A stretch of DNA of 64,000 bases from Eledone cirrhosa (lineage: Eukaryota), in assembly GCA_964016885.1 (NCBI GenBank), contig OZ024743.1:140740001-140804000 (forward strand), given 5' to 3'. The notes under the pieces were generated by a model. That model searched no databases. It saw only the letters and a list, made by a program, of their open reading frames with translations, and was not told the DNA's origin. The position numbers were made by a program, and so were the translations under genes. Shown here one piece after another: positions 25,801 through 52,600 of this stretch (position 1 is its first letter; each line of letters opens with the position of its first letter).

Positions 25801-26450
25801 CACCAAACACCAAACAGCAAACACCAAACAGCAAACACCAAACACCAAACACCAAACACCAAGCACCAAGCACCAAACACCAAGCACCAAGCAACAAACA
25901 CCAATCACCAAGCACCAAGCACTAAAAACCAAACACCCAGCACCAAGCACCAAGCACCAAAGACCAAGCACCAAGCACCAAGCACCAAACACCAAGCACC
26001 AAAGACCAAGCCCCAAATACCAAGCACCAAGCACCAAACACCAATCACCAGGCACCAAGCACCAAACACCAAGAACCAAGCACCAAGCACTAAACACCAA
26101 ATACCAAGCACCAAGCACCAAACTCCAAACACCAAGCACCAAGTACCAAACTCCAAACACCAAACACCAAGCACCAAGCACCAAATCCCAAGCACCAAAC
26201 ACCAAGCACCAATCACCAAACACCAAACACCAAGCACCAAGCACCAAACACCAAAAACCAAGCACCAAGCACCAAGCACCAAACACCAAACGCCAAACAC
26301 CGAACACCAAGTACCAAGCGCCAAACACCAAGCACCAAGCGCCAAAGACCAAACACCAGGCACCAAGCACGAAACACCAAGCACCAAGCACCAAACACCA
26401 AGAACCAAGCACCAAACACCAGACAGCAAGCACCAAGCACCAAACACCAT
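19822..26450 (+). repeat. Higher-order repeat domain A, second block (inside the 10 kb duplication)
   Basis: The marker CATAAAACAACAAGTACC occurs at 20967, 22485, 23339 and 24857 (spacings 1518, 854, 1518). Confidence 0.88.
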
Positions 26451-29400: not shown

Positions 29401-29850
29401 CAAGCACCAAGCACCAAACACCATACACCAAGCACCAAGCACCAAACACCAAAAACCAATCACCAAGCACCAAAGAGCAAACACCAAGCCCCAAGCACCA
29501 AACACCAAACACCAAACCGCAAACACTAAACACCAAACACCAAACAGCAAACACCAAACAGCAAATAGCAAACACCAAACACCAACCAGGAAACACCAAA
29601 CAGCAAACACCAAACAGCAAACGCCAAACAGCAAACACAAACACCAAACACCAAGCACCAAGCACCAAGCACAAAACACCAAGCACCAAGCGCCAAGGAC
29701 CAAACACCAAACACCAAACACCAAACACCAAACACCAATCACCAGACACCAGACACCAAACACCAAACAGCAAACACCAAACACCAAACAGCAAACACCA
29801 AACACCAAACACCATGCACCCAGAACCAAGCACCAAGCACCAAACACCAA
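19822..29850 (+). repeat. ~10 kb tandem segmental duplication, copy 2
   Basis: Same marker order as 9859-19839. The junction overlap 19822-19839 matches both the start of copy 1 and the end of copy 2. Confidence 0.9.
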
Positions 29851-32800
29851 ACACCAAGCACCAAGCACCAAACACCAAACACCAAGCACCAAGCACCAAG
29901 CACCAAGCACCAAACACCATACACCAAGCACCAAGCACCAAACACCAAAAACCAATCACCAAGCACCAAAGAGCAAACACCAAGCCCCAAGCACCAAACA
30001 CCAAACACCAAACACCAAACAACAAACACTAAACACCAAACACCAAACAGCAAACACCAAACACCAAATAGCAAACACCAAACACCAACCAGGAAACACC
30101 AAACAGCAAACACCAAACAGCAAACGCCAAACAGCAAACACAAACACCAAACACCAAACACGAAGCACCAAGCACCAAGCACAAAACACCAAGCACCAAG
30201 CGCCAAGCACCAAACACCAAACACCAAACACCAAACAGCAAACACCAATCACCAAATACCAGACACCAAACACCAAACAGCAAACACCAAACACCAAACA
30301 GCAAACACCAAACACCAAACACCAAACAGCAAACACGAAACAGCAAACACCAAACAGCAGACACCAAACAGCAAACACCAAACAGCAAACACCAAACACC
30401 AAACACCAAACACCAAGCACCAACCACCAAACACCAAGCACCAAGCAACAAACACCAATCACCAAGCACCGAGCACTAAAAACCAAACATCTAGCACCAA
30501 GCACCAAGCACCAAACACCAAGCACCAAGCACCAAGCACCAAACACCAAGCACCAAAGACCAAGCCCCAAATACCAAGCACCAAGCACCAAACACCAATC
30601 ACCAGGCACCAAGCACCAAACACCAAGAACCAAGCACCAAGCACTAAACACCAAATACCAAGCACCAAGCACCAAACACCAAACACCAAGCACCAAGTAC
30701 CAAACTCCAAACACCAAACACCAAGCACCAAGCACCAAATCCCAAGCACCAAACACCAAGCACCAATCACCAAACACCAAACACCAAGCACCAAGCACCA
30801 AACACCAAAAACCAAGCACCAAGCACCAAGCACCAAACACCTAACGCCAAACACCGAAAACCAAGTACCAAGCACCAAACACCAAGCACCAAGCGTCAAA
30901 GACCAAACACCTAGCACCAAGCACGAAACACCAAGCACCAAGCACCGAGCACCAAACACCAAGTACCAGGCACCAATCACCAAACACCAAGAACCAAGCA
31001 CCAAACACCAGACAGCAAGAACCAAGCACCAAACACCAAACTCCAAGCACCAAGCACCAAACACCAAGCACCAAGCGCCAAACACCAAACACCAAGCACC
31101 AAGCACCAAACACCAAGCACCAACCACCAAGCACCAAACACCAAGCACCAAGCACCAAACACCAAGCACCAATCACCAAACAGCAAACACCAAGCACCAA
31201 ACACCAAACACCAAGCACCAAGCACCAAACACCAAGCACCAAGCACCAAACACCAAGCACCAAGCACCAAACACCAAAAACCAATCACCAAGCACCAAAG
31301 AGCAAACACCAAGCCCCAAGCACCAAACACAAAACACCAAATACCAAATAGCAAACACTAAACACCAAACACCAAACAGCAAACACAAAACAACAAATAG
31401 CAAATACCAAACAGCGAACACCAAACACCAAACAGCAAACACCAAACACCAACCAGGAAACACCAAATACCAAGCACCAAACACCAAGCACCAAGCCCCA
31501 AGCACCAAACACCAAGCACCAAGCACCAAACACCAAGCACCAAGCACCAAGCACCATGCACCAAACACCAAGCACCAAGCACCAAACAGCAAACACCAAA
31601 CAGCAAACACCAAACACCAAACACCAACCAGCAAACACCAAACACCAAACACCAAACAGCAAACACCAAACAGCAAACACCAAACAGCAAACACCAAACA
31701 CCAAACACCAAACACCAAACGCCAAAAAGTAAACGCCAAACCCCAAACGCCAAACAGCAAATGCCAAACTCCAAGCGCCAAACACCAAAGACCAAGCGCC
31801 AAGCAACAAACACCAAACACCAAGCACCAAGCACCAAACACCAAACACCAAGCACCAAGTACCAAACACCAAACACCAAGCACCAAACACCAAACAACAA
31901 ACGCCAAAAAGCAAACGCCAAACCCCAAACGTCAAACAGCAAACGCCAAGGACCAAACACCAAACACCAAGCGCCAAGCACCAAATACCAAACACCAAGC
32001 ACCAAGCACCAAACACCAAACACCAAGGACCAATCACCTAACACCAAGCACCAAGCGCCAAACACCAAAAACCAAACACCTAGCACCAAGCACCAAGCAC
32101 CAAACACCAAGCACCAAGCCCCAAGCACCAAACAGCAAGCACCCAGCACCATACACCAAACACCAAGCACCAAGCACCCAGAACAAAGCACCAAGCACCA
32201 AACACCAAACACCAAGCTCCAAGCACCAATCACCAAACACCAAGCACCAAGCACCAAGCACCAAGCACCAAACACCAAACACCAAGCACCAAGCACCAAA
32301 CACCAAGCACCAAGCGCCAAACACCAAACACCAAACACCTAGCACCAAGCACCAAGCACCGAACACCAAGCACCATACACCAAGCACCAAGCACCAAGCA
32401 CCAAGCACCAAGCACCAAACACCAATCACCAAGCCCCAAGCACCAAACACCAAGCACCAAGCACCAAACACCAAACACCAAGCATCAAGCACCCAGAACC
32501 AAGCACCAAGCACCAAACACCAAACACCAAGCACCAAGCACCAAACACCAAACACCAAGCACCAAGCACCAAGCACCAAGCACTAAACACCATACACCAA
32601 GCACCAAGCACCAATCACTAAACACTAAACACCAAGCACCAAGCACCAAACACAAACACCAAGCACCAAGTACCAAACTCCAAACACCAAACACCAAGCA
32701 CCAAGCACCAAATCCCAAGCACCAAACACCATTCACCATAAAACAAACACCAAACACCAAGCATGAAGCACCAAGCACCAAATACCAATCACCAAGCACC

Positions 32801-35800
32801 AAAGAGCAAACACCAAGCCCCAAGCACCAAACACCAAACACCAAACACCAAACAGCAAACACTAAACACCAAACACCAAAGAGCAAACACCAAACACCAA
32901 ATAGCAAACACCAAACACCAACAAGGAAACACCAAACAGCAAACACCAAACAGCAAACGCCAAACAGCAAACACAAACACCAAACACCAAACACCAAACA
33001 CCAAACACCAAGCACCAAGCACAAAACACCAAGCACCAAGCGCCAAGCACCAAACACCAAACACCAAACACCAAACACCAAACACCAATCACCAAACACC
33101 AGACACCAAACACCAAACAGCAAACACCAAACACCAAACAGCAAACACCAAACACCAAACACCAAACACCAAACAGCAAACACCAAACAGCAAACACCAA
33201 ACAGCAAACACCAAACAGCAAACAGCAAACACCAAACACCAAACACCAAGCACCAAGCAGCAAACACCAACACCAAGCAACAAGCACCAATCACCAAGCA
33301 CCAAGCACTAAACACCAAACACCTAGCACCAAGCACCAAGCACCAAACACCAAGCACCAAGCACCAAGCACCAAACACCAAGCACCAAAGACCAAGCCCC
33401 AAATACCAAGCACCAAGCACCAAACACCAATCACCAGGCACCAAGCACCAAACACCAAGAACCAAGCACCAAGCACTAAACACCAAACACCAAGCACCAA
33501 GCACCAAACACCAAGAACCAAGCACCAAGCGCAAACACCGAACACCAAGCACCAAGCACCAAACACCAAGCACCAACCACCAAGCACCAAACACCAAGCA
33601 CCAAGCACCAATCACCAAACACCAAGCACCAAGCACCAAACACCAAACATCAAGCACCAAGCACCAAACACCAAACTACAAGCACCAAGCACCAAACACC
33701 AAATACCAAGCACCAACCACCAACCACCAAGCACCAAACACCAAGAACCAAGCACCAAGCACCAAACACCAAGCACCAAATACCAAGCACCAGACGCGAA
33801 GCACCAAGCACCAAGCACCAAAAACCAAGCACCAAGCTCCAAGCACCAAACACCAAGCACCAAACAACAAACACCAAGCACCAAGCACCAAACACCAAGC
33901 ACCAAGCGCCAAAAACCAAACAATAAGCACCAAGCACCTAATACCAAGCACCAAGCACCAAGCACCAAACACCAAACACCAAACACCAAACAGCAAACAG
34001 CAAACACCAAACACCAAACACCAAACAGCAAACGCCAAACATCAAACGCCAAACACCAAACGCCAAACAGCAAACGGCAAACACCAAACGCCAAACAGCA
34101 AGCGCCAAGCACGAAACGCCAAACACCAAGCACCAAGCACCAAACACCAAACACCTAGCACCAAGCACCAAACACCAAACACCAAGCACCAAGCACTAAA
34201 CGCCAAACACCAAGCGCCAAGCACCAAGCACCAAACACCAAGCACCAAGCACCGAGCACCAGACACCAAACACCGAGCACCAAGCACCAAGCACCAAACA
34301 CCAAGCCCCAAGCACCAAACACCAACCAGCAAACACCAAACACCAAACACTAAAAAGCAAACACCAAACAGCAAACACCAAACAGAAACACCAAACACCA
34401 AACACCAAACAGCAAACGCCAAGCACCAAACGCCAAAAAGCAAATGCCAAAACCCAAACGCCAAACAGCAAACGCCATACCCCAAACGCCAAGCACCAAA
34501 CACCGAACACCAAGCACCAAGCACCAAACACCAAACACCAAGCACCAATCACCAAGCACCAAACACCAATCACCAAGCCCCAAGCACCAAACACCAAGCG
34601 TCAAGCACCAAACACCAAACACCAAGCACCAAGCACCCAGAACCAAGCACCAAGCACGAAACACCAAACACCAAGCACCAAGCACCAAACACCAAATACC
34701 AAGCACCAAGCACCAAGCACCAAGCACCAAACAGCATACACCAAGCACCGAGCACCAAACACCAAAAACCAATCACCAAGCACCAAAGAGCAAACACCAA
34801 GCCCCAAGCACCAAACACCAAACACCAAACACCAAACACTAAACAGCAAACACCAACCAGCAAACACCAAACAGCAAACACCAAACAGCAAACGCCAAAC
34901 AGCAAACACAAACACCAAACACCAGGCACCAAGCACCAAGAACCAAGCAGCAAACACCAAACACCAAGCACCAAGCACCAAACACCAAACACCAAGCACC
35001 AAGCACCAAACACCAAATACCAAGCACCAAGCACTAAACACCAAACACCAAACACCAAGCACCAAGCACTAAACACCAAACACCAAGCACCAAGCACCAA
35101 ACACCAAACACCAAGCACCAAGTACCAAACTCCGAACACCAAACACCAGGCAACACGCACCAAGAACCAAGCAGCAAACACCAAACACCAAGCACCAAGC
35201 ACCAAGCACCAAACACCAAACACCAAACACCAAGCACCAAGCACCAAACACCAAGCACCAAGCGCCAAAGACCAAACACCAAGCACCAAGCATGAAACAC
35301 CAAGCACCAAGCACCGAGCACCAAACACCAAGTACCAAGCACCAATCACCAAACACCAAGAACCAAGCAGCAAACACCAAACACCAAGCACCAAGCACCA
35401 AACACCAAACACCAAGCACCAAGCACCAAACACCAAATACCAAGCACCAAGCACTAAACACCAAACACCAAGCACCAAGCACCAAGCATCATGCACCAAG
35501 CACCAAACACCAAGCACCAAGCACCAAGCACCAAGCACCAAACACAAAACACCAAGTACCAAGCACCTACCACAAAACACCAAACACCAAACACCAAGCA
35601 CCAGACACCAAGCACCAAGCACTAAGCACCAAGCACCAAAAACCAAGCACCAAGCTCCAAGCACCAAACACCAAGCACCAAACACCAAACACCAAGCACC
35701 AAGCACCAATCACCAAGCACCAAGCACCAAATACCAAGCACCAAACACCAAACACCAAACACCAAGCCCCAAGCACCAAACACAAAACACCAAGCACCAA

Positions 35801-38800
35801 GCACCAAACACCAAACACCAAGCACCAACCACCAAACACCAAATACCAAGCACCAAGCACCAGGCACCAAGCACCAAACACCAAGCACCAAGCACCAAGC
35901 ACCAAACACCAAGCACCAAACACCAAGCACCAGACACCAAGCACCAAGCACCAAACACCAAACAGCAAACACCAAACACCAAACAGCAAACACCAAACAG
36001 CAAACACCAAACACCAAACACCAACCAGCAAACACCAAGCACCAAGCACTAAACAGCAAACACCAAGCACCAAGCACCAAGCACCAAACACCAAGCACCA
36101 AGCACCAAGCACCAAACACCAAGCACCAAGCACCAACCACCAAGCAGCAAGCACCAAGCACCAAGCACCAAACACCAAGCACCAAGCACCAAACACCAAA
36201 CACCAAGCACCAATCACCAAACACCAAACACCAAGCACCAAGCACCAAACACCAAGCACCAAGCACCAAAGAGAAAAAAACCAAGCACCAAGCATCAAAC
36301 ACCAAACACCAAACACCACACAGCAAACAGCAAACAGCAAACACCAAACAGCAAACACCAAATAGCAAACACCAAACAGCAAACACCAAACACCAAACAG
36401 CAAACACTAAACACCAAACACCAAGCACCAAGCACAAGCACCAAACAACAAGCACCAAGCACCAAGCACCAAGCACCAAACACCAAACACCAATCGCCAA
36501 ACACCAAACACCAAGCATCAAGCACCAAACACCAAACACCAAGCACCAAGCACCAAGCACCAAGCACCAAACACCAAGCACCAAGCACCAATCACCAAAC
36601 ACCAAACACCAGGCACCAAACACCAAACAGCAAACACCAATCACCAAACACCAAACACCAAACAGCAAACACCAATCACCAAACAACAAACACCAAACAC
36701 CAAACAGTAAACACCAAACACCAAACAGCAAACACCAAACACCAAACACCAAACAGCAAACACCAAACACCAAACACCAAACACCAAACACCAAACAAAC
36801 AGCAAACAGCAAACACCAAACAGCAAACAGCAAACACCAAACACCAAACAACAAACGCCAAACAGCAAATGCCAGCCACCAGATGCCTAACAGCAAACGC
36901 CAAACACCAAATGCCAAACAGCAAACACCAAACACCAAACAGCAAACACCAAACACCAAACACCAAATAGCAAACACCAAACAGCAAACACCAAACAACA
37001 AACACCAAACAGCAAACACCAAACAGCAAACAGCAAACACCAAACACCAAACACCAAGCACCAAGCACCAAACACCAAGCACCAATCAACAAGCACCAAT
37101 CACCAAGCACCAAGCACTAAACACCAAACACCAAGCACCAAGCACCAAGCACCAAACACCAAGCACAAAGCACCAAGCACCAAACGCCAAGCAACAAGCA
37201 CCAAACACCAAGCACCAAGCACCAAGCACCAAACACCAAGCACCAAAGACCAAGCACCAAATACCAAGCACCAAGCACCAAACACCAATCACCAAGCACC
37301 AAGCACCAAACACCAAGAACCAAGCACCAATCACTAAACACTAAACACCAAGCACCAAGCACCAAACACAAACACCAAGCACCAAGTACCAAACTCCAAA
37401 CACCAAACACCAAGCACCAAGCACCAAATCCCAAGCACCAAACACCATGCACCATAAAACAAACACCAAACACCAAGCATGAAGCACCAAGCACCAAATA
37501 CCAAACACCAAACACCAAGCACCACATCAAACACCAAGCACCAAGCACCAATCGCCAAGCACCAAGCACCAAGCAACAAACACAAAGCACCAAACACCAA
37601 GCACCAAGCACCAAGCACCAAACACCAAGCACCAAGCACCCAACACCAAACACCAATCACCAAGCACCAAAGAGCAAACACCAAGCCCCAAGCACCAAAC
37701 ACCCAACACCAAACACCAAACATCAAACACCAATCACGAATCACCAAACAGCAAACAGCAAACACCAAACACCAAACACCAAGCACCAAGCACCAAACAC
37801 CAAACACCAAGCACTAAGCACCAAACACCAAATACCAAGCACCAAGCACTAAACACGAAACACCAAGCACCAAGCACCAAGCACCAAGCACCAAACACCA
37901 AGCACCAAGCACCAAGCACCAAACACCAAGCACTAAGCACCAAACACCAAACACCAAGCACCAAACACCAAGCACCAAGCACCAAGCACCAGACACCAAG
38001 CACCAAGCACCAAACACCAAGCACCAAACACCAAGCACCAAGCACCAAACACCAAACATCAAGCACCAAGCACCAAACACCAAACACCAAGCACCAAGCA
38101 CCAAGCACCAAGCACCAAGCACCAAACACAAAGCACCAAGCACCAAACAGCAAACACCAAGCACCAAACACCAAACACCAAGTACCAAGCACCAAACACC
38201 AAACACCAAGCACCAAACACCAAGCACCAAGCACCAAACACCAAACACCAAGCACCAAGCACCAAGCACCAAACACCAAACACCAAACACCAAACAGCAA
38301 ACACCAAACAGCAAACACCAAACAGCAAACACCAAATAGCAAACACCAAACAGCAAACAGCAAACACAAAACACCAAACACCAAGCACCAAGCACCAAAC
38401 ACGAAGCACCAAGCAACAAGCACCAATCACCAAGCACCAAGCACTAAACACCAAACACCTAGGACCAAGCACCAAGCACCAAACACCAAGCACCATGCAC
38501 CAAGCACCAAACACCAAGCACCAAAGACCAAGCACCAAATACCAAGCACCAAGCACCAAAGACCAATCACCAAGTACCAAGCACCAAGTCCCAAGCACCA
38601 AACACCAAGCACCAATCACCAAACACCAAACACCAAGCACCAAGCAGCAAACACCAAAAATCAAGCACCAAGCACCAAGCACCAAACACCAAACGCCAAA
38701 CACAAAATACCAAGCACCAAGCACCAAACACCAAGCACCAAGCGCCAAAGACCAAACACCAAAAACCAAGCACAAAACACCAAGCACCAAGCACCGAGCA

Positions 38801-40167
38801 CCAAACACCAAGTACCAAGCACCAATCACCAAACACCAAGCACCAAGCACCAAACACCAAACACCAAGCACCAAGCACCAAGCACCAAGCATCAAGCACC
38901 AAGCACCAAACACCAAGCACCAAGCACCAAGCACCAAACACAAAACAACAAGTACCAAGCACCAAACACTTAACACCAAACACCAAGCACCAAGCACCAA
39001 ACACCAAACACCAAGCACCAAGCACCAGACACCAAGCACCAAGCACCAAGCACCAGACACTAAGCACCAAGCACCAAACACCAAGCACCAAACACCAAGC
39101 ACCAAGCACCAAACACCAAACACCAAGCACCAAGCACTAAACACCAAACACCAAGCACTAAGCACCAAGCACCAAGCACCAAGCACCAAGCACCAAGCAC
39201 CAAGCACCAAACACAAAGCACCAAGCACCAAACAGCAAACACCAAGCACCAAGCACCCAACCCCAAGCACCAAGCACCAAGCACAAAACACCAAGCACCA
39301 AACACCAAGCACCAAGCCCCAAGCACCAAACACCAAGCACCAAGCACCAAACACAAAGCACCAAGCACCAAGCACCATACACCAAACACCAAGCACCAAG
39401 CACCAAACAGCAAACACCAAACAGCAAACACCAAACACCAAACACCAACCAGCAAACACCAAACACCAAACACCAAACAGCAAACACCAAACAGCAAACA
39501 CCAAACAGCAAACACCAAACAGCAAACGCCAAAAAGCAAACGCCAAACCCCAAACGCCAAACAGCAAATGCCAAAACCCAAACGCCAAACAGCAAACACC
39601 AAGCGCCAAGCACCAAACACCAAACACCAAGCACCAAACACCAAGTACCAAACACCAAACACCAAGCACCAAACACCAAACAGCAAACACCAAAAAGCAA
39701 ACACCAAGCCCCATACGCCAAACAGCAAATGCCAAACCCCAAACGCCAAACAGCAAACGCCAATCACCAAACACCAAACACCAAGCGACAAGCACCAAAC
39801 ACCAAACACCAAGCACCAAGCACCAAACACCAAACACCAAGCACCAATCACCAGACACCAAACACCAAGCACCAATCACCAAACACCAAGCACCAAGCGC
39901 CAAACACTAAACACCAAACACCTAGCACCAAGCACCAAGCACCAAACACCAAGCACCAAACACCAAGCACCAAGCACCAAGCACCAAACACCAAGCACCA
40001 AACACCAAGCACCAGACACCAAGCACCAAGCACCAAGCACCAAGCACCAAAAACCAAGCACCAAGCTCCAAGCACCAAACGCCAAGCACCAAACGCCAAG
40101 CAGCACCAAGCACCAAACACCAAGCACCAAGCGCCAAACACCAAACACCAAGCACCAAGCACCAAAT

Positions 40168-40207
40168 ACCAAGCACCAAGCACCAAGCTTGGTGCTTGGT
40201 GCTTGGT
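40168..40207. other. Inversion junction: perfect 40-bp spacer-less palindrome centred on AAGCTT (40185-40190)
   Basis: The sequence reads accaagcaccaagcaccaag|cttggtgcttggtgcttggt. Symmetry breaks at the 21st base (left arm reverse complement continues ATTTGG, right arm continues GCTTGG). Confidence 0.97.
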
Positions 40208-40529
40208 GCTTGGTGTTTGGTGCTTGGTGCTTGGTGCTTGGTGTTTGGTGCTTGGTGCTTGGTGCTTGCTCTTTGGTGGTTGCTGTTTGGTGCTTGGTGT
40301 TTGGTGCTTGGTGCTTGGTGCTGGGTGGTTGGTGTTTGGTGCTTGGTGCTTGGTGTTTGGTGCTTGGTGCTTGGTGCTTGTTGTTTGGTGCTTGGTGCTT
40401 GGTCTTTGGTGCTTGGTGTTTGGTGTTTGGTGATTGGTGCTTGGTGCTTGGTGCTTGGTGTTTGGTGCTTGGTGCTTGGTGATTAGTGTTTGGTGCTTGG
40501 TGCTTGGGGTTTGGTGTTTTGTGCTTAGT

Positions 40530-40990
40530 GCTTGGTGTTTGGTGTTTGGTGTTTGCTGTTTGGTGTCTGCTTTTTGGTATTTGATGTTTGCTGTATGGTG
40601 TTTGCTGTTTCGTATTTGGTGTTTGCTGTTTGGTGTTTGGTGTTTGGTGTTTGGTGCTTGGTGTTTGGTGCCTGGTGCTTGGTGTTTGGCGTTTGGTGTT
40701 TGGTGTTTGGTGCTTGGTGCCTGGTGCTTGTTGTTTGGTGTTTGGTACTTGGTGCTTGGTGTTTGGTGTTTGGTGTTTGCTGTTTGGTGTCTGCTTTTTG
40801 GTATTTGGTGTTTGCTGTATGGTGTTTGCTGTTTCGTATTTGGTGTTTGCTGTTTGGTGTTTGGTGTTTGGTGTTTGGTGCTTGGTGTTTGGTGCCTGGT
40901 GCTTGGTGCTTGGTGTTTGGTGTTTGGTGTTTGGTGCTTGGTGCCTGGTGCTTGTTGTTTGGTGTTTGGTACTTGGTGCTTGGTGTTTGG
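40530..40990 (-). repeat. Local 224-bp (32-monomer) tandem duplication near the inversion
   Basis: The marker GTCTGCTTTTTGGTAT occurs at 40565 and 40789, each followed by the same variants (GTATGG, TTTCGTAT, GCCTGG, GTACTT). Confidence 0.85.
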
Positions 40991-43900
40991 TGTTTGGTGC
41001 TTGGTGTCTGGTGTTTGGTGCTTGGTGTTTGGTGTTTGGTGCTTGGTGCTTGGTGTTGGTGTTTGGTGTTTGGTGCTTGGTGCTTGGTGTTTTGTGTTTG
41101 GTGCTTAGTGCTTGGTGTTTGGTGTTTGGTGCTTGGTGTTTGGTGTTTGGTGTTTGATGCTTGGTTTTTGCTGCTTGGTGCTTGGTGCTTGGTGCTTGGT
41201 GCTTGGTGTTCTGTGTTTGGTGCTTGATGCTTGGTGCCTGGTGCTTGGTGCTTGGTGCTTGTTGTTTGGTGCTTGGTGCTTGGTGATTAGTGTTTTGTGC
41301 TTGGTGCTTGGTGTTTGGTGTTTGGTGTTTCGTGCTTGGTGTCTAGTGTTTGGGTTTTGGTGTTTGGTGCTTGGTGCTTGGTGTTTAGTGTTTGGTGCTT
41401 GGTGCTTGGTGTTTGGTGATTGGTGCTTGGTGTTTGGTGCTTGGTGCTTTGTGCTTGGTGTTTGGTGCTGGGTGCTTGGTGTTTGGTGCTTGGTGCTTGG
41501 TGTTTGGTGTTTGGTGCTTGGTACTTGGTGTTTGGTGTGTGATGCTTGGTGTTTGATGCTTGTTGCTTGGTGCTTGGTGTTTTGTGTTTGGTGTTTGGTG
41601 CTTGGTGTATGTACTTGGTGCTTGGTGCTTGGTGTTTGGTGCTTGGTTCTTGGTATTTGGTGCTTGGTGCTTGGTGCTTGGTGTTTGGTGCTTGGTGCTT
41701 GGTGTTTGGTGCTTGGTGTTTGGTGTTTGGTGCTTGGTGTTTGGTGCTTGGTGCTTGCTGCTTGCTGCTTGGTGTTTGGTGCTTGGTGATTGGTGCTTGG
41801 TGTTTGGTGCTTGGTGCTTGGTGTTTGGTGTTTGGTGCTTGGTGTTTGGTGCTTGGTGCTTGCTGCTTGCTGCTTGGTGTTTGGTGCTTGGTGATTGGTG
41901 CTTGGTGTTTGGTGTTTGGTGCTAGGTGTTTGGTGCTTGGTGTTCGGTGCTTGGTGCTTGGTGCTTGGTGCTTGGTGTTAGGTGTTTGGTGCTTGGTGCT
42001 TGGTGTTTGATGTTTGGTCCTTGGTGCTTGGTGTTTGGTGTTTGGTGCTTGGTGCTTGGTGTTTCGTGTTTGGTGCTTGCTGCTTGCTGCTTGGTGTTTG
42101 GTGCTTGGTGATTGGTGCTTGGTGTTTGGTGCTTGGTGCTTGGTGTTTGGTGTTTGGTGCTTGGTGTTTGGTGTTTGGTGTTTGACGCTTGGTTTTTGCT
42201 GCTTGTTGCTAGGTGCTTGGTGCTTGGTGTTCTGTGTTTGGTGCTTGGTGCTTGGTGCCCGGTGCTTGGTGCTTGGTGCTTGTTGTTTGGTGCTTGGTGC
42301 TTGGTGATTAGTGTTTGGTGCTTGGTGCTTGGTGTTTGGTGTTTGGTGCTTGGTGTTTGGTGTTTGGTGATTGGTGCTTGGTGCTTGGTGCTTGGTGTTA
42401 AGTGTTTGGTGCTTGGTGCTTGGTGTTTGGTGCTTCGTGCTTGGTGCTTGGTGTTTGGTGCATGGTGCTTGATGTTTGGGGCTTGGTGCCTGGTGCTTGG
42501 TGTTTGGTGCTTGGTGCTTGGTGCTTGGTGTTTGGTGTTTGGTGCTTGGTGCTTGGTGTTTGGTGCTTGGTGCTTGGTGCTTGGTGTTCGGTGCTTGGTG
42601 CTAGGTGCTTGGTACTTGGTGTTAGGTTTTTGGTGCTTGGGGCTTGGTGTTTGATGTTTGGTCCTTGGTGCTTGGTGTTTGGTGTTTGGTGCTTGGTGCT
42701 TGGTGCTTGGTGTTTCGTGTTTGGTGCTTGCTGCTTGCTGCTTGGTGTTTGGTGCTTGGTGATTGGTGCTTGGTGTTTGGTGCTTGGTGGTTGGTGCTTG
42801 GTGTTTGGTGTTTGGTGCTAGGTGCTTGGTGCTTGGTGTTTGGTGCTTGGTGCTTGGTGTTTGGTGTTTGATGCTTGGTGCTTGGGGCTTGGTGTTTGGT
42901 GCTTGCTGCTTGGTGTTTGGTGCTTGCTGCTTGGTGTTTGTTGTTTGGTGTTTGGTGCTTGGTGTTTGGTGCTTGGTGCTTGGTGCTGGGTGGTTGATGT
43001 TTGGTGCTTGGTGCTTGGTGTTTGGTGCTTGGTGCTTGGTGCTTATTGTTTGGTACTTGGTGCTTGGTGCTTGGTGCTTGGTCTTTGGTGCTTGGTGTTT
43101 GGTGTTTGGTGTTTGGTGTTTGTGCTTGGTGCTTGGTGCTTGGTGTTTGGTGCTAGGTGCTTAACGCTTGGTATTTGGTGCTTGGTGCTTGGTGCTTGGT
43201 GATTAGTGTTTGGTGATTGGTGCTTGGGGTTTGGTGTTTTGTGTTTGCTGTTTGGTGTATGCGGTTTGGTGTCTGCTTTTTGGTGTTTGGTGTTTGCTGT
43301 ATGGTGTTTGCTGTTTTGTGTTTCGTGTTTGCTGTTTGGTGTTTGGTGCTTGGTGCTTGGTGCTTGGTGTTTGGTGCTTGGTGCTTGGTGCTTGGTGTTT
43401 GGCGTTTGCTGTTTGCTGTTTAGTGTTTGGTGTTTGCTGTTTGGTGTTTGCTGTTTGGTGTTTGGTGCTTGGTGCTTGGTGGCTGGTGTTCGGTGCTTGG
43501 TGTTTGGATTTTGGTCCTTGGTGCTTGGTGCCTGGTGTTTCGTGCTTGGTGCTTGGTGTTTGGTGTTTGGTATTTGGTGCTTGGTGCTTGGTGCTTGGTG
43601 TTTGGTGGTTGGTGCTTGGTGCTTGGTGTTTAATGCTGCGTGCTTGGTGTTTGGTGTTTGGTGCTTGGTGCTTGGTGTTTGGTGATTGGAGCTTGGTGCC
43701 TGGTGCTTGTTGTTTGGTGCCTGGTGCTTGTTGTTTGGAGTTTGGTGCTTGGTGCTTGGTGTTTGGTGCTTGGTGCTTGGTGCTTGATGTTTGGTGCTTG
43801 GTGCTTGGTGTTTGGTGCTTGGTGCTTGGTGCTTGGTGCTTGGTGTTAGGTGTTTGGTGCTTGGTGCTTGGTGTTTGATGTTTGGTCCTTGGTGCTTGGT

Positions 43901-46689
43901 GTTTGGTGTTTGGTGCTTGGTGCTTGGTGTTTGGTGTTTTGTGTTTGGAGTTTGGTGCTTGGTGTTTGGTGCTTCGGGCTTGGTGCTTGGTGTTTGGTGC
44001 TTGGTGCTTGGTGTTTGGTGCTTGGTGCCTGGTGCTTGGTGTTTGGTGCTTGGTGCTTGGTGTTTGGTGATTGGTGCTTGGTGTTTGGTGCTTGGTGCTT
44101 GGTGCCTGGTGCTTGGTGTTAGGTGTTTGGTGCTTGGTGCTTGGTGTTTGATGTTTGGTCCTTGGTGCTTGGTGTTTGGTGTTTGGTGCTTGGTGTTTGG
44201 TGTTTGGTGTTTGGTGCTTGGTGCTTGGTGTTTGGTGCTTGCTGCCTGCTGCATGGGTTTTGGTGCTTGGTGATTGGTGCTTGGTGTTTTGAGCTTGGTG
44301 CTTGGTGTTTGGTGTTTGGTGTTTGGTGCTTGGTGCTTGGTGCTTGGTGTTTGGTGCTGCGTGCTTGGTGTTTGGTGTCTGGAGTTTGGTGCTTGGTGCT
44401 TGGTGCCTGGTGTTTCGTGCTTGGTGCTTGGTGCTTGGTGTTTGGTGTTTGGTGCTTGGTGTTTGGTGCTTGGTGCCTGGTGCTTGGTGTTTGGTGCTTG
44501 GAGCTTGGTGTTTGGTGATTGGTGCTTGGTGTTTGGTGATTGGTGCTTGATGCTTGGTTCTTGGCGTTAGGTGTTTGGTGCTTGGTGCTTGGTGTTTGAT
44601 GTTTGGTCCTTGGTGCTTGGTGTTTGGTGTTTGGTGCTTGGTGCTTGTTGTTTGGTGTTTGGTGCTTGCTGCTTGCTGCTTGGTGTTTGGTGCTTGGTGT
44701 TTTGTGCTTGATGCTTGGTGTTTGTTGTTTGGTGCTAGGGGCTTAGTGCTTGGTGCTTGGTGTTTGGTGCTTGGTGCTTGCTGTTTGGTGTTTGGTGCTT
44801 GGTGCGTGGGACTTAGTGTTTGATGTTTGGTGCTTGGTGTTTGGTGCTTGGTGTTTGGGGCTTGGTGTTCGGTGCTTGGTGCCTGGTGCTTGGGGCTTGG
44901 TGTTTGGTGTTTGGTGCTTGGTGCTTGGTGTTTGATGTTGGGTCCTTGGTGCTTGGTGCTTGGTGTTTGGTGCTTGGTGTTTGGTGCTTGGTGCTTGATG
45001 TTTGGTGTTTGGTTCTTGGTGCTTGGTGTTTGGTGTTTGGTGTTTGGTGCTTGGTGCTTGGTGCTTGGTGTTTGGTGCTTGGTGCATGGTGCTTGGTGCT
45101 GCGTGCTTGGTGTTTGGTGTTTGGTGCTTGGTGCCTGGTGCTTGTTGTTTGGTGTTTGGTGCTTAATGCTTGGTGTTTGGTGTTTGGTGCTTGGTGCTTG
45201 GTGGCTGGTGTTTGGTGCTTGGTGTTTGGAGTTTGCTGCTTGGTGCTTGGTGCCTGGTGTTTCGTGCTTGGTGCTTGGTGCTTGGTGTTTCGTGTTTGGT
45301 GCTTGGTGTTTGGTGCTTGGTGCTTGGTGCTTGGTGCTTGGTGTTTGGTGCTTGGTGTTTGATGCTGCGTGCTTGGTGTTTGGTGTTTGGTGCTTGGTGC
45401 TTGGTGTTTGGTGTTTGGAGCTTGGTGCCTGGTGCTTGTTGTTTGGTGTTTGGTGCTTGGTGCTTGGTGATTGGTTTTTGGTGCTTGGTGCTTGGTGCTT
45501 GGTATCTGGTGTTTGGTGTTTGATGTTTGGTGTTTGGTGCTTGCTGCTTGGCGCTTGGTGTTTGGTGTTTGGTGCTTGGTGCTTGGTGTTTGGTGCTTGG
45601 TGTTTGTTGTTTTGTGTTTGGTGTTTGGTGCTTGGTACCTGGTGCTTGGTGCTTGGTGCTTGTTGTTTGGTGCTTGGTGCTTGGTGATTAGTGTTTGGTG
45701 CTTGGTGCTTGCGGTTTGGTGTTTGGTGCTTGGGGTTTGGTGTTTGCTGCTTGGTGCTTGGTGTTTGGTGCTTTGTGCTTGGTGCTTGGTGTTTGGTGCT
45801 TGGTGCTTGGAGTTTGGTGCTTGGTGCTTGGTGTTTGGTGTTTGGCATTTGCTGTTTGCTGTTTGCTTTTTGGTGTTTGCTGTTTGCTGTTTGCTGTTTA
45901 GTTTTCTGTTTGGTGCTTGATGTTTGGTGCTTGGTGCTTGGCGTTTGGTGTTTGGTGTTTGGTGCTTGGTGCTTGGTGTTTGGTGCTTGGTGCTTGGTGC
46001 TGGGTGTTTGGTGCTTGGTGCTTGGTGTTTGGTGCTTGGTGCGTGTTGCTTGGTGTTTGGTCCTTGGTGCTTGGTGCTTGGGTTTTGGTGTTTGGTGCTT
46101 GCTGTTTGGTGCTTGCTCTTTGGTGCTTGGTGCTTGGTGATTCGTGTTTGGTGATTGGTGCTTGGGGTTTGGTGTTTGGTGCTTGGTGTTTGGTGCTTGG
46201 TGCTTGCTGTTTGGTGTTTGGTGTTTGGTTTTGGTGCTTGGTGTTTGATGTTTGGTGTTTGGTGCTTGGTGCTTGGAGTTTGGTGCTGCGTGCTTGGTGT
46301 TTGGTGTTTGGTGCTTGGTGCCTGGTGCTTGTTGTTTGGTGTTTGGTGCTTAGTGCTTGGTGTTTGGTGTTTGGTGCTTGGTGGCTGGTGCTTGGTGCTG
46401 GGTGTTTCGTGCTTGGGGCTTGGTGCTTGGTGTTTGGTGTTTGGTGCTTGGTGTTTGGTGTTTGGTACTTGGTGCTTGGTGCTTGGTGCTTGGTGTTTGG
46501 TGCTTGGTGTTTGATGCTGCGTGCTTGATGTTTGGTGTTTGGTGCTTGGTACTTGGTGCTTGGTGTTTGGTGTTTGGTGCTTGGTGCTTGGTGTTTGGTG
46601 CTTGGTGTTTGGTGTTTGGTGTTTGATGCTTGGTGTTTGCTGCTTGGTGCTTGGTGCTTGGTGTTTTGTGTTTGGTGCTTGGTACTTGG

Positions 46690-49600
46690 TGATTAGTGTT
46701 TGGTGCTTGGTGCTTGCGGTTTGGTGTTTGGTGCTTGGGGTTTGGTGTTTGCTGCTTGGTGCTTGCTGCTTGGTGCTTGGTGTTTGGTGCTTGGTGCTTG
46801 GTGTTTGGTGTTTGGTGCTTGGGGTTTGGTGTTTGGTGCTTGGTGCTTGGAGTTTGGTGCTTGGTGCTTGGTGTTTGGAGTTTGGTGCTTGGTGCTTGGT
46901 GCCTGGTGCTTGTTGTTTGGTGTTTGGTGCTTAGTGGTTGGTGTTTGGTGTTTGGTGCTTGGTGCTTGGTGGCTGGTGTTTGGTGCTTGGTGTTTGGAGT
47001 TTGGTGTTTGGTGCTTGGTGCCTGGTGTTTCGTGCTTGGTGCTTGGTGCTTGGTGTCTGGTGTTTGGTGCTTGGTGTTTGGTGTTTGGTACTTGGTGCTT
47101 GGTGCTTGGTGCTTGGTGTTTGGTGCTTGGTGTTTGATGCTGCGTGCTTGGTGTTTGGTGTTTGGTACTTGGTGCTTGGTGTTTGGTAGTTGGAGCTTGG
47201 TGCCTGGTGCTTGTTGTTTGGTGTTTTGTGCTTGGTGCTTGGTGTTTGGTGTTTGGCGTTTGGTGCTTGGTGCTTGGTATCTGGTTTTTGGTGCTTGATG
47301 TTTGGTGTTTGGTGCTTGGTGCTTGGTGCTTGGTGTTTGGTGTTTCGTGTTTGATGCTTGGTGTTTGCTGCTTGGTGCTTGGTGCTAGGTGTTTTGTGTT
47401 TGGTGCTTGGTGCTTGGTGCCTGCTGCTTGGTGCTTGGTGCTTGTTGTTTGGTGCTTGGTGCTTGGTGATTAGTGTTTGGTGCTTGGTGCTTGCGGTTTG
47501 GTGTTTGGTGCTTGGGGTTTGGTATTTGGTGCTTGGTGCTTGGTGTTTGGTGCTTGGTGCCTGGTGCTTGGTGTTTGGTGCTTGGTGCTTGGTGTTTGGT
47601 GCTTGGTGCTTGGTGTTTGGTGTTTGGCGTTAGCTGTTTGCTGTTTGGTGTTTGGTGTTTGCTGTTTGGTGTTTGCTGTTTGGTGTTTGGTGTTTGGTGC
47701 TTGCTGTTTGGTGCTTGGTGCTTGGTGTTTGGTGTTTGGTGTTTGGTGCTTGGTGCTTGGTGTTTGGTGCTTGGTGCTTGGTGCTGGGTGTTTGGTGCTT
47801 GGTGCTTGGTGTTTGGTGCTTGGTGCTTGGTGCCTGGTGTTTGGTCCTTGGTGCTTGGTGCTTGGTGCTTGGTGCTTGCTGTTTGGTGTTTGGTGTTTGG
47901 TTCTTGGTGCTTGGTGTTTGGTGTTTGGTGTTTGGTGCTTGGTGCTTGGTGTTTGGTGCTTGGTGCTTGGTGCTTGGTGATTAGTGTTTGGTGATTGGTT
48001 CTTGGGGTTTGGTGTTTGGTGCTTGGTGTTTGGTGCTTGGTGCTTGCTGTTTGGTGTTTGGTGTTTGGTTCTTGGTGCTTGGTGTTTGGTGTTTGGTGTT
48101 TGGTGCTTGGTGCTTGGTGCTTGGTGTTTGGTGCTTGGTGCTTGGTGCTTGGTGTTTGGTGCTGCGTGCTTGGTGTTTGGTGTTTGGTGCTTGGTGCCTG
48201 GGGCTTGTTGTTTGGTGTTTGGTGCTTAGTGCTTGGTGTTTGGTGTTTGGTGCTTGGTGCTTGGTGGCTGGTGCTTGGTGCTTGGTGTTTGGAGTTTGGT
48301 GCTTGGTGCTTGGTGCCTGGTGTTTCGTGCTTGGTGCTTGGTGCTTGGTGTTTGTTGTTTGGTGTTTGGTGTTTGGTGTTTGGTACTTGGTGCTTGGTGC
48401 TTGGTGTTTGGTGCTTGGTGTTTGGTGATTGGTGCTTGGTGCTTGGTGCTTGGTGCTTGGTGTTAGGTGTTTGGTCCTTGGTGCTTGTTGTTTGGTGTTT
48501 TGTGCTTGGTGCTTGGCGTTTGGTGTTTGGCGCTAGGGGCTTGGTGCTTGATGCTTGGTGTTTGGTGCTTGGTGCTTGCTGTTTGGTGTTTGGTGCTTGG
48601 TGCGTGGGACTTAGTGTTTGGTGTTTGGTGTTTGGTGTTTGGTGCTTGGTGTTTGGTGCTTGGTGCTTGGTGTTTGGTGTTTGGTGCTTAGTGCTTGGGG
48701 CTTGGTGTTTGGTGCTTGGTGTTTGGTGTTTGGTGCTTGGTGCTTGGTGTTTGGCGCTTGGTGCTTGGTGCTTGGTGTTTGGTGCTTGGTGCTTGGTGCT
48801 TGGTGCTTGGTGATTAGTGTTTGGTGCTTGGTGCTTGGTGCCTGGTGCTTGGTGCTTGGTGCTTGTTGTTTGGTGCTTGGTGTTTGGTGCTTGGTGTTTG
48901 GTGCTTGGTGCTTGGTGTTTGGTGTTTGGTGCTTGGTGCTTGGGGCTTGGTCTTTGGTGCTTAGTGTTTGGTGCTTGGTGTTTGGTGCTTGGTGCTTGGT
49001 GCTTGGTGTTTGGTGTTTGGTGTTTGGTGCTTGGTGTTTGGTGCTTGGTGCTTGGTGCTGGGTGGTTGGTGTTTGGTGTTTGGTGCTTGGTGCTTCGTGC
49101 TTATTGTTTGGTGCTTGGTGCTTGGTGCTTGGTGCTTGGTCTTTGGTGCTTGGTGTTTGGTGTTTGGTACTTGGTGCCTGGTGTTTGGCGCTTGGTGCTT
49201 GGTGCTTGGTGTTTGGTGCTTGGTGTTTGGTGCTTGGTGATTAGTGTTTGGTGCTTGGTGCTTGGTGCCTGGTGCTTGGTGCTTGGTGCTTGATGTTTGG
49301 TGCTTGGTGCTTGGTGCTTGGTGCTTGGTTCTTGGTGTTAGGTGTTTGGTGCTTGGTGATTGGTGTTTGATGTTAGGTTCTTGGTGCTTGGTGTTTGGTG
49401 CTTGCTGCTTGGTGCTTGGTGTTTTGTGTTTGGAGTTTGGTGCTTGGTGTTTGGTGCTTCGGTCTTGGTGTTTGGTGTTTGGTGCTTGGTGCCTGGGGCT
49501 TGTTGTTTGGTGTTTGGTGCTTAGTGCTTGGTGTTTGGTGTTTGGTGCTTGGTGCTTGGTGGCTGGTGCTTGGTGCTTGGTGTTTGCAGTTTGGTGCTTG

Positions 49601-52600
49601 GTGCTTGGTGCCTGGTGTTTCGTGCTTGGTGCTTGGTGCTTGGTGTTTGGTGTTTGGTGCTTGGTGTTTGGTGTTTGGTACTTGGTGCTTGGTGCTTGGT
49701 GTTTGGTGCTTGGTGTTTGGTGCTTGGTGCTTGGTGCTTCGTGCTTGGTGTCAGGTGTTTGGTGCTTGGTGCTTGGTGTTTGGTGCTTGGTGCTTGGTGT
49801 TTGGTGCTTGGTGCTTTGTGTTTGGTGCTTGGTGTTTGGTGCTTGGTGCTTGGTGCTTGGTTCTTGGTGTTAGGTGTTTGGTGCTTGGTGATTGGTGTTT
49901 GATGTTAGGTTCTTGGTGCTTGGTGTTTGGTGCTTGCTGCTTGGTGCTTGGTGTTTTGTGTTTGGAGTTTGGTGCTTGGTGTTTGGTGCTTCGGTCTTGG
50001 TGTTTGGTGTTTGGTGCTTGGTGCCTGGGGCTTGTTGTTTGGTGTTTGGTGCTTAGTGCTTGGTGTTTGGTGTTTGGTGCTTGGTGCTTGGTGGCTGGTG
50101 CTTGGTGCTTGGTGTTTGCAGTTTGGTGCTTGGTGCTTGGTGCCTGGTGTTTCGTGCTTGGTGCTTGGTGCTTGGTGTTTGGTGTTTGGTGCTTGGTGTT
50201 TGGTGTTTGGTACTTGGTGCTTGGTGCTTGGTGTTTGGTGCTTGGTGTTTGGTGCTTGGTGCTTGGTGCTTCGTGCTTGGTGTCAGGTGTTTGGTGCTTG
50301 GTGCTTGGTGTTTGATGTTTGGTCCTTGGTGCTTGTTGTTTGGTGTTTGGTGCTTCGTGCTTGGTGTTTGGTGTTTGGTGCTTGCTGCTTGCTGCTTGGT
50401 GTTTGGTGCTTGGTGATTGGTGCTTGGTGTTTTGTGCTTGGTGCTTGGTGTTTGGTGTTTGCTGCTAGGGGCTTGGTGCTTGATGCTTGGTGTTTGGTGC
50501 TTGGTGCTTGCTGTTTGGTGTTTGGTGCTTGGTGCGTGGGACTTAGTGTTTGGTGTTCGGTGCTTGGTGTTTGGTGCTTGGTGTTTGGTGCTTGGTGCTT
50601 GGTGTTTGGTGTTTGGTGCTTGGTGCTTGGGGCTTGGTCTTTGGTGCTTAGTGTTTGGTGCTTGGTGTTTGGTGCTTGGTGCTTGGTGCTTGGTGTTTGG
50701 TGTTTGGTGTTTGGTGCTTGGTGTTTGGTGCTTGTTGCTTGGTGCTGGGTGGTTGGTGTTTGGTGTTTGGTGCTTGGTGCTTGGTGCTTATTGTTTGGTG
50801 CTTGGTGCTTGGTGCTTGGTGCTTGGTCTTTGGTGCTTGGTGTTTGGTGTTTGGTGCTTGGTGCCTGGTGTTTGGCGCTTGGTGCTTGGTGCTTGGTGTT
50901 TGGTGCTTGGTGTTTGGTGCTTGGTGATTAGTGTTTGGTGCTTGGTGCTTGGTGCCTGGTGCTTGGTGCTTGGTGCTTGATGTTTGGTGCTTGGTGCTTG
51001 GTGATTAGTGTTTGGTGCTTGGTGCTTTGGGTTTGGTGTTTGGTGCTTGGGGTTTGGTGTTTGGTGCTTGGTGCTTGGTGTTTGGTGCTTGGTGCTTGGT
51101 GTTTGGTGCTTCGTGCTTTGTGTTTGGTGCTTGGTGTTTGGTGCTTGGTGCTTGGTGCTTGGTGCTTGGTGTTAGGTGTTTGGTGCTTGATGATTGGTGT
51201 TTGATGTTAGGTTCTTGGTGCTTGGTGTTTGGTGCTTGGTGCTTGGTGCTTGGTGTTTGGTGTTTGGTGCTTGCTGCTTGGTGCTTGCTGTTTGGTGTTT
51301 GGTGCTTGGTGCGTGGGACTTAGTGTTTGGTGTTTGGTGTTTGGTGTTTGGTGCTTGGTGTTTGGTGCTTGGTGCTTGGTGTTTGGTGTTTGGTGCTTAG
51401 TGCTTGGGGCTTGGTGTTTGGTGCTTGGTGTTTGGTGTTTGGTGCTTGGTGCTTGGTGTTTGGCGCTTGGTGCTTGGTGCTTGGTGTTTGGTGCTTGGTG
51501 CTTGGTGCTTGGTGCTTGGTGATTAGTGTTTGGTGCTTGGTGCTTGGTGCCTGGTGCTTGGTGCTTGGTGCTTGTTGTTTGGTGCTTGGTGTTTGGTGCT
51601 TGGTGTTTGGTGCTTGGTGCTTGGTGTTTGGTGTTTGGTGCTTGGTGCTTGGGGCTTGGTCTTTGGTGCTTAGTGTTTGGTGCTTGGTGTTTGGTGCTTG
51701 GTGCTTGGTGCTTGGTGTTTGGTGTTTGGTGTTTGGTGCTTGGTGTTTGGTGCTTGGTGCTTGGTGCTGGGTGGTTGGTGTTTGGTGTTTGGTGCTTGGT
51801 GCTTCGTGCTTATTGTTTGGTGCTTGGTGCTTGGTGCTTGGTGCTTGGTCTTTGGTGCTTGGTGTTTGGTGTTTGGTACTTGGTGCCTGGTGTTTGGCGC
51901 TTGGTGCTTGGTGCTTGGTGTTTGGTGCTTGGTGTTTGGTGCTTGGTGATTAGTGTTTGGTGCTTGGTGCTTGGTGCCTGGTGCTTGGTGCTTGGTGCTT
52001 GATGTTTGGTGCTTGGTGCTTGGTGATTAGTGTTTGGTGCTTGGTGCTTTGGGTTTGGTGTTTGGTGCTTGGGGTTGGTGTTTGGTGCTTGGTGCTTGGT
52101 GTTTGGTGCTTGGTGCTTGGTGTTTGGTGCTTGGTGCTTTGTGTTTGGTGCTTGGTGTTTGGTGCTTGGTGCTTGGTGCTTGGTTCTTGGTGTTAGGTGT
52201 TTGGTGCTTGGTGATTGGTGTTTGATGTTAGGTTCTTGGTGCTTGGTGTTTGGTGCTTGCTGCTTGGTGCTTGGTGTTTTGTGTTTGGAGTTTGGTGCTT
52301 GGTGTTTGGTGCTTCGGTCTTGGTGTTTGGTGTTTGGTGCTTGGTGCCTGGGGCTTGTTGTTTGGTGTTTGGTGCTTAGTGCTTGGTGTTTGGTGTTTGG
52401 TGCTTGGTGCTTGGTGGCTGGTGCTTGGTGCTTGGTGTTTGCAGTTTGGTGCTTGGTGCTTGGTGCCTGGTGTTTCGTGCTTGGTGCTTGGTGCTTGGTG
52501 TTTGGTGTTTGGTGCTTGGTGTTTGGTGTTTGGTACTTGGTGCTTGGTGCTTGGTGTTTGGTGCTTGGTGTTTGGTGCTTGGTGCTTGGTGCTTCGTGCT

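What the first reader, a model, noticed from the sequence alone, without database searches (positions are those of the whole stretch)
40168..40207. Spacer-less inversion turns the satellite into a giant (>47 kb) imperfect palindrome
Seen: the array flips strand once, exactly in monomer phase, with no inserted or unique base, and at least 23.8 kb of complementary repeat lies on each side. Known: polarity switches occur in centromeric satellite arrays, and Trypanosoma brucei minichromosomes are built around a central palindrome of tandem 177-bp repeats. Inference: this point may be a structural centre (cruciform, origin, centromere or minichromosome core) or the scar of a fold-back or template-switch event. 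It is the best candidate for a functional element in the window.
Basis: partly seen in the sequence, partly recalled or inferred. Interest (0 to 1): 0.75.

Follow-up and report, generated by a model that had tools for sequence, protein, structure and literature searches.

The report
One satellite flip, copied eleven times
A 7-letter repeat really does reverse direction at this spot, but the same joint occurs eleven times along one 14.6-million-base repeat array and its two sides are different repeat sub-families, so it is likely an old rearrangement scar carried along by duplications rather than a unique palindromic control centre.

Summary
The strand switch at 40187/40188 is real, in phase and without inserted bases. 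It is not a giant palindrome: perfect symmetry is 20 bp per arm, which 6% of random in-phase joins reach, and only 1-3% of left-arm 56-mers recur in the right arm. It is not unique: the same joint (J) with the same flanks stands at 11 places in a 14.6-Mb array on contig C4, ten of them 105-256 kb from a copy of one opposite joint (K). Seven joint types explain 29 of 31 mapped switches. J sits on the monomer's only 2-bp inverted microhomology. A marker found only at block ends (64 of 64) suggests each K-J block grew from a small inverted island before megabase duplications multiplied it. Against neutrality: a weak substitution deficit around J (7 versus 14, P about 0.03). It matches the conserved inversion sites of Tribolium satellites and human HSat3 strand switches. 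This scan noted the same pattern before in other satellite arrays of this genome. No read, chromatin or replication data were tested.

The parts
1..40187 (+). C-rich arm, (CACCAAR)n; the last 40 kb of a 187-kb block that starts at joint K (C4 140.594 Mb) and is inverted relative to most of the array
40188..64000 (-). G-rich arm, same monomer on the other strand, a different higher-order family; runs 254 kb to the next K copy
40187..40188 (.). Joint J: the GC dinucleotide shared by both orientations (2-bp microhomology), centre of the HindIII site 40185-40190
40168..40207 (.). Perfect 40-bp palindrome (20-bp arms); kept in 9 of 11 copies of J
40101..40103 (+). 3-bp phase shift that ends in-register mirror pairing; present once in each of the 10 intact J copies and nowhere else in the stretches fetched by then, so a lineage marker
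40131..40188 (+). 58-bp variant marker; 64 exact matches in the genome, all within 15.6 kb of a K or 9.4 kb of a J
33900..46500 (.). Older, poorly homogenised zone of about 6 kb on each side of J, with few near-identical copies inside the window; shared by all J copies
1..30400 (+). Young higher-order repeats of the left arm (recurring periods near 1.5, 2.4, 3.0 and 10 kb)
46900..64000 (-). Young higher-order repeats of the right arm

Best explanation
The switch is one of eleven copies of a single joint in a 14.6-Mb 7-bp satellite array, and it is likely the passive scar of one old inversion or inverted insertion that later duplications multiplied. Step 1 (inferred): a break or stalled fork joined two opposite-strand satellite ends at the monomer's GC, the only place where the two consensus strands share two bases, which is why the join is in phase with nothing inserted. 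Step 2 (inferred from marker position): with its partner joint K it bounded a small inverted island, possibly as short as 0.4 kb, which then grew from within by tandem duplication to 105-256 kb while the edges stayed old. Step 3 (copies shown, route inferred): megabase-scale duplications, mostly head to tail and twice inverted, spread the K-J unit through the array in a short period. The joint can form a hairpin when single-stranded, but no role is needed to explain it.
For: 9 exact copies, 1 one-base variant and 1 deletion derivative of J, all on C4 130.4-142.9 Mb. 10 copies of K, each 105-256 kb from a J and on the same side, also in the reversed unit. Private substitutions per copy 0.07-0.54% with few shared ones; the 130-Mb unit and the reversed 134.5-Mb unit share 5 derived sites at J and 5 at K. 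Of 49 ways to cut and join two CACCAAG strands, 3 give a 2-bp overlap and all 3 are this joint; the independent joint J2 uses the same overlap. Other joints show 0-2 bp overlap (possibly 4 at K3). 64 of 64 matches of a 58-bp marker lie at block ends; the last 250 bp before J align to 150-406 bp after K. Edges lack young repeats. 2 of 11 copies have a damaged centre. Same pattern in Tribolium and human HSat3, where switches are read as by-products of expansion.
Against: J and K are not exact reciprocal products: the rebuilt pre-inversion joins are not found, and the outer flanks do not align better than controls, so their origin in one event is inferred, not shown. The J and K trees agree for only one pair; units 136 and 138 share 6 sites at J and none as a pair at K. 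Substitutions within 350 bp of J are fewer than in the flanks: 8 against 23 expected (P 0.0003) unfiltered, 7 against 14 (P 0.03) after removing alignment edges and clusters, none at K (14 against 15) and none within 87 bp (3 against 5.3, P 0.22); the deleted copy was left out of these counts and the window size was chosen after looking. With a one-monomer slip the first 70 bp pair with only 3 mismatches (0.9% of random joins; 0.4% or 13% when one real end is fixed), which a short fold-back would explain. No reads were laid.
Confidence: 0.78

Rival explanations
1. J is a working landmark (hairpin or short cruciform for centromere chromatin, an origin or a loop anchor), repeated about once per megabase and kept by selection or by arm-to-arm correction.
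For: Centre intact in 9 of 11 copies; substitution deficit within 350 bp of J and not of K; single-strand hairpin of -103 kcal/mol over 200 nt; a 14.6-Mb, nearly transposon-free array at about 36% of a 379-Mb contig could be (peri)centromeric; the same role is proposed, untested, for Tribolium.
Against: One copy deleted across the centre and one mutated at it; copies are young, so similarity needs no selection; the deficit is weak after filtering; any strand switch gives such a hairpin; cruciform costs +12.6 kcal/mol at 20-bp arms and +43.8 at 70 bp before junction penalties; the satellite is almost confined to C4 (22,200 +/- 1,500 extrapolated matches against 20,391 in the genome), so it is not a shared centromere repeat.
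Confidence: 0.08
2. J began as a short fold-back: a C-rich 3' end snapped back on the GC of the previous monomer (5-nt loop), copied about 70 bases, then switched to another template. The later history is as in the best explanation.
For: Minimum-energy fold has a 5-nt loop and a one-monomer slip; 3 mismatches in 70 bp at that slip, 0.9% of random joins; GC overlap fits.
Against: The left 63 bp, with its rare variants, matches dozens of ordinary repeat copies exactly, so it was not copied from the right arm; the right 77 bp is plain consensus that pairs this well with 13% of left-arm positions; no mirror beyond 87 bp.
Confidence: 0.1
3. Assembly artefact (fold-back chimeric read or mis-oriented contig join).
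For: No independent reads were laid; the best-holding runs may be the source sample. One other switch in the array does sit on a 200-N gap (137.411 Mb).
Against: No N in the window or in 12 flanking samples; arms are not mirror copies as a chimeric read would give; 11 copies each with private substitutions and indels but one breakpoint.
Confidence: 0.03

Closest known systems
Conserved inversion sites / macro-dyad symmetries of Tribolium freemani TfSat01 and T. madens TmSat1/2 (PMC12581902: abstract, passages, section 5 seen; PMC13081366: abstract and passages seen)
   Same: Few joint types, each in many near-identical copies (95.0-99.9% there; mostly above 99% here); no foreign bases at the switch; unequal arms; predicted hairpins; function untested.
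   Different: 7-bp monomer; oriented blocks of 14 kb to 1.3 Mb and about 2 switches per Mb rather than arrays of about 12 kb with thousands of sites; one chromosome rather than many; here the copy history and partner joint are traced.
Strand switches in human HSat3 (chr9) and beta satellite arrays (10.1101/2021.07.12.452052 and 10.64898/2026.07.22.740206: passages seen)
   Same: Multi-megabase simple-sequence satellite with many switches; their number scales with array length and they are read as by-products of expansion.
   Different: Far fewer switches here (31 mapped against more than 200); the passages seen do not group human breakpoints into copied families.
Layered expansion of centromeric arrays (10.1101/2021.07.12.452052, passages seen)
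   Same: Old, related sequence at both edges, young higher-order repeats inside.
   Different: Here it is seen inside a 0.1-0.25 Mb inverted block bounded by two joints, not across a whole centromere; no CENP-A data.
Trypanosoma brucei minichromosome 177-bp palindrome (PMC6152948 and PMC11739655: passages seen; Wickstead 2004 not held, title only)
   Same: Tandem repeat that reverses orientation.
   Different: Not a small chromosome, not one central switch, no telomeres near, different repeat; origin activity there is ascribed to the repeats, not shown for a switch point.
Fold-back inverted duplication (breakage-fusion-bridge type; recalled, no paper read)
   Same: Strand switch on short microhomology.
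   Different: Arms at J are not mirror copies; the joint K3 at C4 134.467 Mb does have related arms.

Membership tests
Amplified satellite inversion site (Tribolium type) | Orientation switch inside an uninterrupted satellite array, no foreign sequence | tested here: met
Amplified satellite inversion site (Tribolium type) | Few joint types, each in several near-identical copies | tested here: met
   7 types give 29 joints; J 11, K 10, J2 3, K5 2
Amplified satellite inversion site (Tribolium type) | Same joint on non-homologous chromosomes | tested here: not met
   all joint matches on C4; the satellite itself is nearly confined to C4
Amplified satellite inversion site (Tribolium type) | (Peri)centromeric location | not testable with these tools
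   no CENP-A, FISH or Hi-C; position and homogeneity only
Fold-back inverted duplication / true giant palindrome | Arms are mirror copies at the level of variants | tested here: not met
Fold-back inverted duplication / true giant palindrome | Microhomology or short loop at the centre | tested here: met
   2-bp GC overlap; 5-nt loop fold
T. brucei-type minichromosome core | Sub-megabase chromosome with one central switch and telomeres at both ends | tested here: not met
   379-Mb contig, 31 switches, no telomere repeat in the fetched C4 stretches
T. brucei-type minichromosome core | Origin activity over the repeats | not testable with these tools
   no replication data
Simple reciprocal inversion or site-specific recombinase switch | Partner joint is the exact reciprocal product | tested here: not met
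   no reciprocal GC join with consensus flanks; K does not restore J's parents
Telomere fusion site | G-rich then C-rich telomere repeats head to head | tested here: not met
   order is C-rich then G-rich; a separate (CCCTAA)n array exists in this genome
Functional centromere core | CENP-A occupancy | not testable with these tools
   no chromatin data

The most novel reading that the evidence does not exclude
J is a self-correcting or selected hairpin landmark, set about once per megabase through a chromosome-specific centromeric array. Because it comes with a co-copied control (K, same age, no palindrome, no substitution deficit), the array would be a natural paired test of whether satellite macro-dyads have a function.
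Probability: 0.1. Interest if true: 0.65.

Novelty: new member of a known kind. Interest (0 to 1): 0.25.

Why it matters
As it stands it is a clean worked example of how satellite strand switches multiply: 7 joining events give 29 joints, so conservation of inversion sites does not by itself imply function, which bears on the macro-dyad hypothesis for Tribolium centromeres. The joints also act as fixed landmarks that record growth of a small island into 0.1-0.25 Mb blocks and megabase duplications in an otherwise unalignable 7-bp array. If chromatin data picked out J over K, it would be a rare direct lead on non-B DNA at centromeres.

Tried and rejected
Giant fold-back at J: rejected. Exact reciprocal inversion J/K and a recombinase acting on the GC: rejected. 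Target-site duplication between the outer flanks of K and J: alignment score 289 against 279 and 284 for controls, no support. Congruent J and K trees: informative for one pair only. HindIII Southern as proposed would not single out this joint: 22 sites in 1.27 Mb of sampled satellite, 9 of them exact J copies chosen for sampling. Literature: no description of this satellite among the listed hits (20 of 780 listed; 11 of 13; 5 of 7); 0 papers; some searches gave the comparison papers. Only titles and abstract starts of the listings were seen. No supplements were read; those of the 325-genome centromere atlas (10.64898/2026.09.17.752431, passages seen; bioRxiv supplements closed) may list this repeat. 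Earlier notes near the window: none; by sequence: only unrelated bacterial heptamer repeats. The organism was not determined; 'octopus-like' rests on earlier AI notes and a recalled resemblance of flanking DNA. Notebook entry 2 and my reading overcount J by one; the count is 11.

Full report
Observation. The window is entirely a 7-bp satellite, CACCAAR, C-rich on the + strand to 40187 and G-rich from 40188. No base is inserted, and 40168-40207 is a perfect palindrome with 20-bp arms. That length is unremarkable: 6.4% of 20,000 random in-phase joins of the two arms reach it. Mirror pairing is 90% over 70 bp and is broken by a 3-bp phase shift 87 bp left of the axis. Beyond that the arms are different higher-order families: median best match 12-13 mismatches per 140 bp between arms, 1-2 within; 1-3% of left 56-mers are found in the right arm. 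The 'giant palindrome' is only what any strand switch in a tandem repeat gives.

Setting. The window is G000:C4:140740001-140804000 in a 3.0-Gb genome; C4 is 378.8 Mb. The array starts between 128.805 and 128.83 Mb and ends at 143.422 Mb. A 41-base repeat word has 20,391 matches in the genome; 38 spread 10-kb samples extrapolate to 22,200 +/- 1,500 on C4 alone, so the satellite is nearly confined to this array, with a small outpost on C2 near 250.9-251.1 Mb. The organism was not determined; earlier AI notes call it octopus-like, which I did not test.

The joint is one of eleven. The exact 28-bp joint (J) occurs at 9 places, all on C4; a one-base variant lies at 138.93 Mb and a derivative that lost about 87 bp on the left and 425 bp on the right at 131.69 Mb. 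Flanks are the same: most pairwise 2-kb comparisons differ by 0.1-0.9%, with outliers up to 9% where one flank is locally rearranged (141.21 left, 142.89 left, 136.17 and 137.89 right). Two copies are reversed. An opposite-type joint (K) occurs 10 times (9, 1), each 105-256 kb from a J, the window's own at 140.594 Mb, 187 kb upstream. Pattern searches and 160 fetched stretches gave 31 switches in 14.6 Mb, about 2 per Mb: J 11, K 10, J2 3, K5 2, K2, K3 and K4 once each, one on a 200-N gap and one across a 100-kb island of other satellites. This is a lower bound: short islands between samples with other joints would be missed.

How the joint was made (inferred). Of 49 ways to cut and join a CACCAAG strand to its complement, only 3 give a 2-base overlap, and all are this joint; joins with CACCAAA give at most 1. 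J2, whose parents are different repeat variants, uses the same overlap. K has 1 bp, K5 none, K3 2 or 4, the deletion 1; K2 and K4 are unclear. This is the pattern expected of end joining or template switching (established knowledge, recalled), and it explains 'in phase, no inserted base' without a special mechanism. K is not the exact reciprocal of J, no reciprocal GC join with consensus flanks was found, and the outer flanks do not align better than controls; a clean two-break inversion or a recombinase is therefore not supported.

How the block grew (inferred). The 58 bases ending at J have 64 exact matches in the genome; 49 lie within 15.6 kb of a K, 15 within 9.4 kb of a J (8 abutting it), none elsewhere. 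The last 250 bp before J align, with a few percent difference, to 150-406 bp after K. About 6 kb on each side of J has few near-identical copies in the window, while sequence further out is young higher-order repeat. The simplest reading is a small inverted island, 0.4 kb at the least, whose interior expanded while the edges stayed put. The matches are copies of each other and not independent; a larger starting block with related ends is not excluded.

How it spread. Private substitutions per copy are 0.07-0.54% at J and 0.12-0.48% at K, with few shared ones, so the copies arose close together in time; no rate is available to date them. The unit at 130 Mb and the reversed unit at 134.5 Mb share 5 derived sites at J and 5 at K, so J and K travelled together there; the pair 136/138 shares 6 sites at J and none as a pair at K, so agreement is partial. 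The reversed unit is bounded by K3, where the two sides are related over 40 kb (62-93% shared 56-mers): the array does hold a true inverted duplication, but not at the window's joint.

Function. Single-stranded, 200 nt around J folds at -103 kcal/mol, as any switch would. Cruciform extrusion costs +12.6 kcal/mol for 20-bp arms, +43.8 for 70 and +89.8 for 100, before junction terms and without supercoiling, so only a short cruciform is plausible. Nine of 11 copies keep the perfect centre. Within 350 bp of J, the 10 intact copies show 8 substitutions against 23 expected, or 7 against 14 after filtering (P about 0.03); within 87 bp there is no deficit (P 0.22), and K shows none. The deleted copy was excluded and the window size was chosen after looking, so I weigh this as a weak lead. 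With a one-monomer slip the first 70 bp pair with 3 mismatches (0.9% of random joins; 0.4% or 13% with one real end fixed); a short fold-back start is possible, but the left end matches ordinary repeat copies with its rare variants.

Artefact. There is no N in the window or in 12 flanking 10-kb samples, which cover 70 of 146 kb on the left and 50 of 230 kb on the right. The arms are not mirror reads, and the copies carry private variants.

Comparison. It works like the conserved inversion sites of Tribolium satellites: few types, no foreign bases, near-identical copies, function hypothesised but untested (PMC12581902; PMC13081366). It differs in being on one chromosome, sparse and with blocks of up to 1.3 Mb. 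Human HSat3 and beta satellite carry more than 200 switches, read as by-products of expansion. It is not a T. brucei-type minichromosome core. Searches found no description of this satellite (listings only, supplements unseen). Earlier notes of this scan report the same copy-of-one-inversion pattern in 16-, 20- and 30-bp satellites of this genome; they are unchecked and are not counted as support.

Verdict. Real switch, not a giant palindrome and not unique; likely a neutral scar multiplied by duplication (0.78). New member of a known kind; interest 0.25.

Noticed in passing
L021 (G000:C4:134,466,820), with L137-L144: A true inverted duplication: 62-93% of 56-mers on the left recur reversed on the right over 40 kb; the first 160 bp to the right mirror a stretch 291 bp to the left (7 mismatches). 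It is flanked by mirror J copies 35 and 59 kb away.
   Followed up: partly
L134, L107, L108, L135 (C4 about 140.036-140.14 Mb): Island of about 100 kb inside the array made of an AT-rich 11-12-bp repeat and a 25-bp satellite; the 7-bp array changes strand across it.
   Followed up: partly
L113-L115, L164, L170 (C2 250.0-251.2 Mb): The same 25-bp satellite alternates with short CACCAAR arrays and is followed by at least 7.5 kb of interstitial (CCCTAA)n in a 416-Mb contig; may mark an old chromosome end or fusion site.
   Followed up: partly
L127 (C4 137.411 Mb): A 200-N gap with a strand change across it; orientation there depends on scaffolding. Another 200-N gap in L112.
   Followed up: no
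L018 (C4 131.693 Mb): J copy with the palindrome centre deleted (about -87 to +425), which also lacks the 3-bp phase shift.
   Followed up: yes
L030 (C4 127.0 Mb) and L095:5312-6101: A separate homogeneous 28-bp satellite (92% matches, whole 10-kb sample) 1.8 Mb from the array, and a 112-bp tandem repeat of 7 copies.
   Followed up: no
L111:209-334 (C4 143.48 Mb): Short open exon-like stretch 60 kb from the array end that looks like part of an ATAD3-type ATPase (recalled; no Pfam hit), so genes may lie close to the array.
   Followed up: partly
L035:1992-4352 (C4 146.5 Mb): 786-aa frame with a reverse transcriptase domain (Pfam RVT_1), likely a non-LTR retrotransposon.
   Followed up: partly
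L119-L133 (C4 136.97 and 139.61 Mb): Joint K5 occurs twice, each followed by a C-rich block of about 430-440 kb that ends at the gap or the island; the second block passes from right-arm-type to left-arm-type repeats without a strand change.
   Followed up: no
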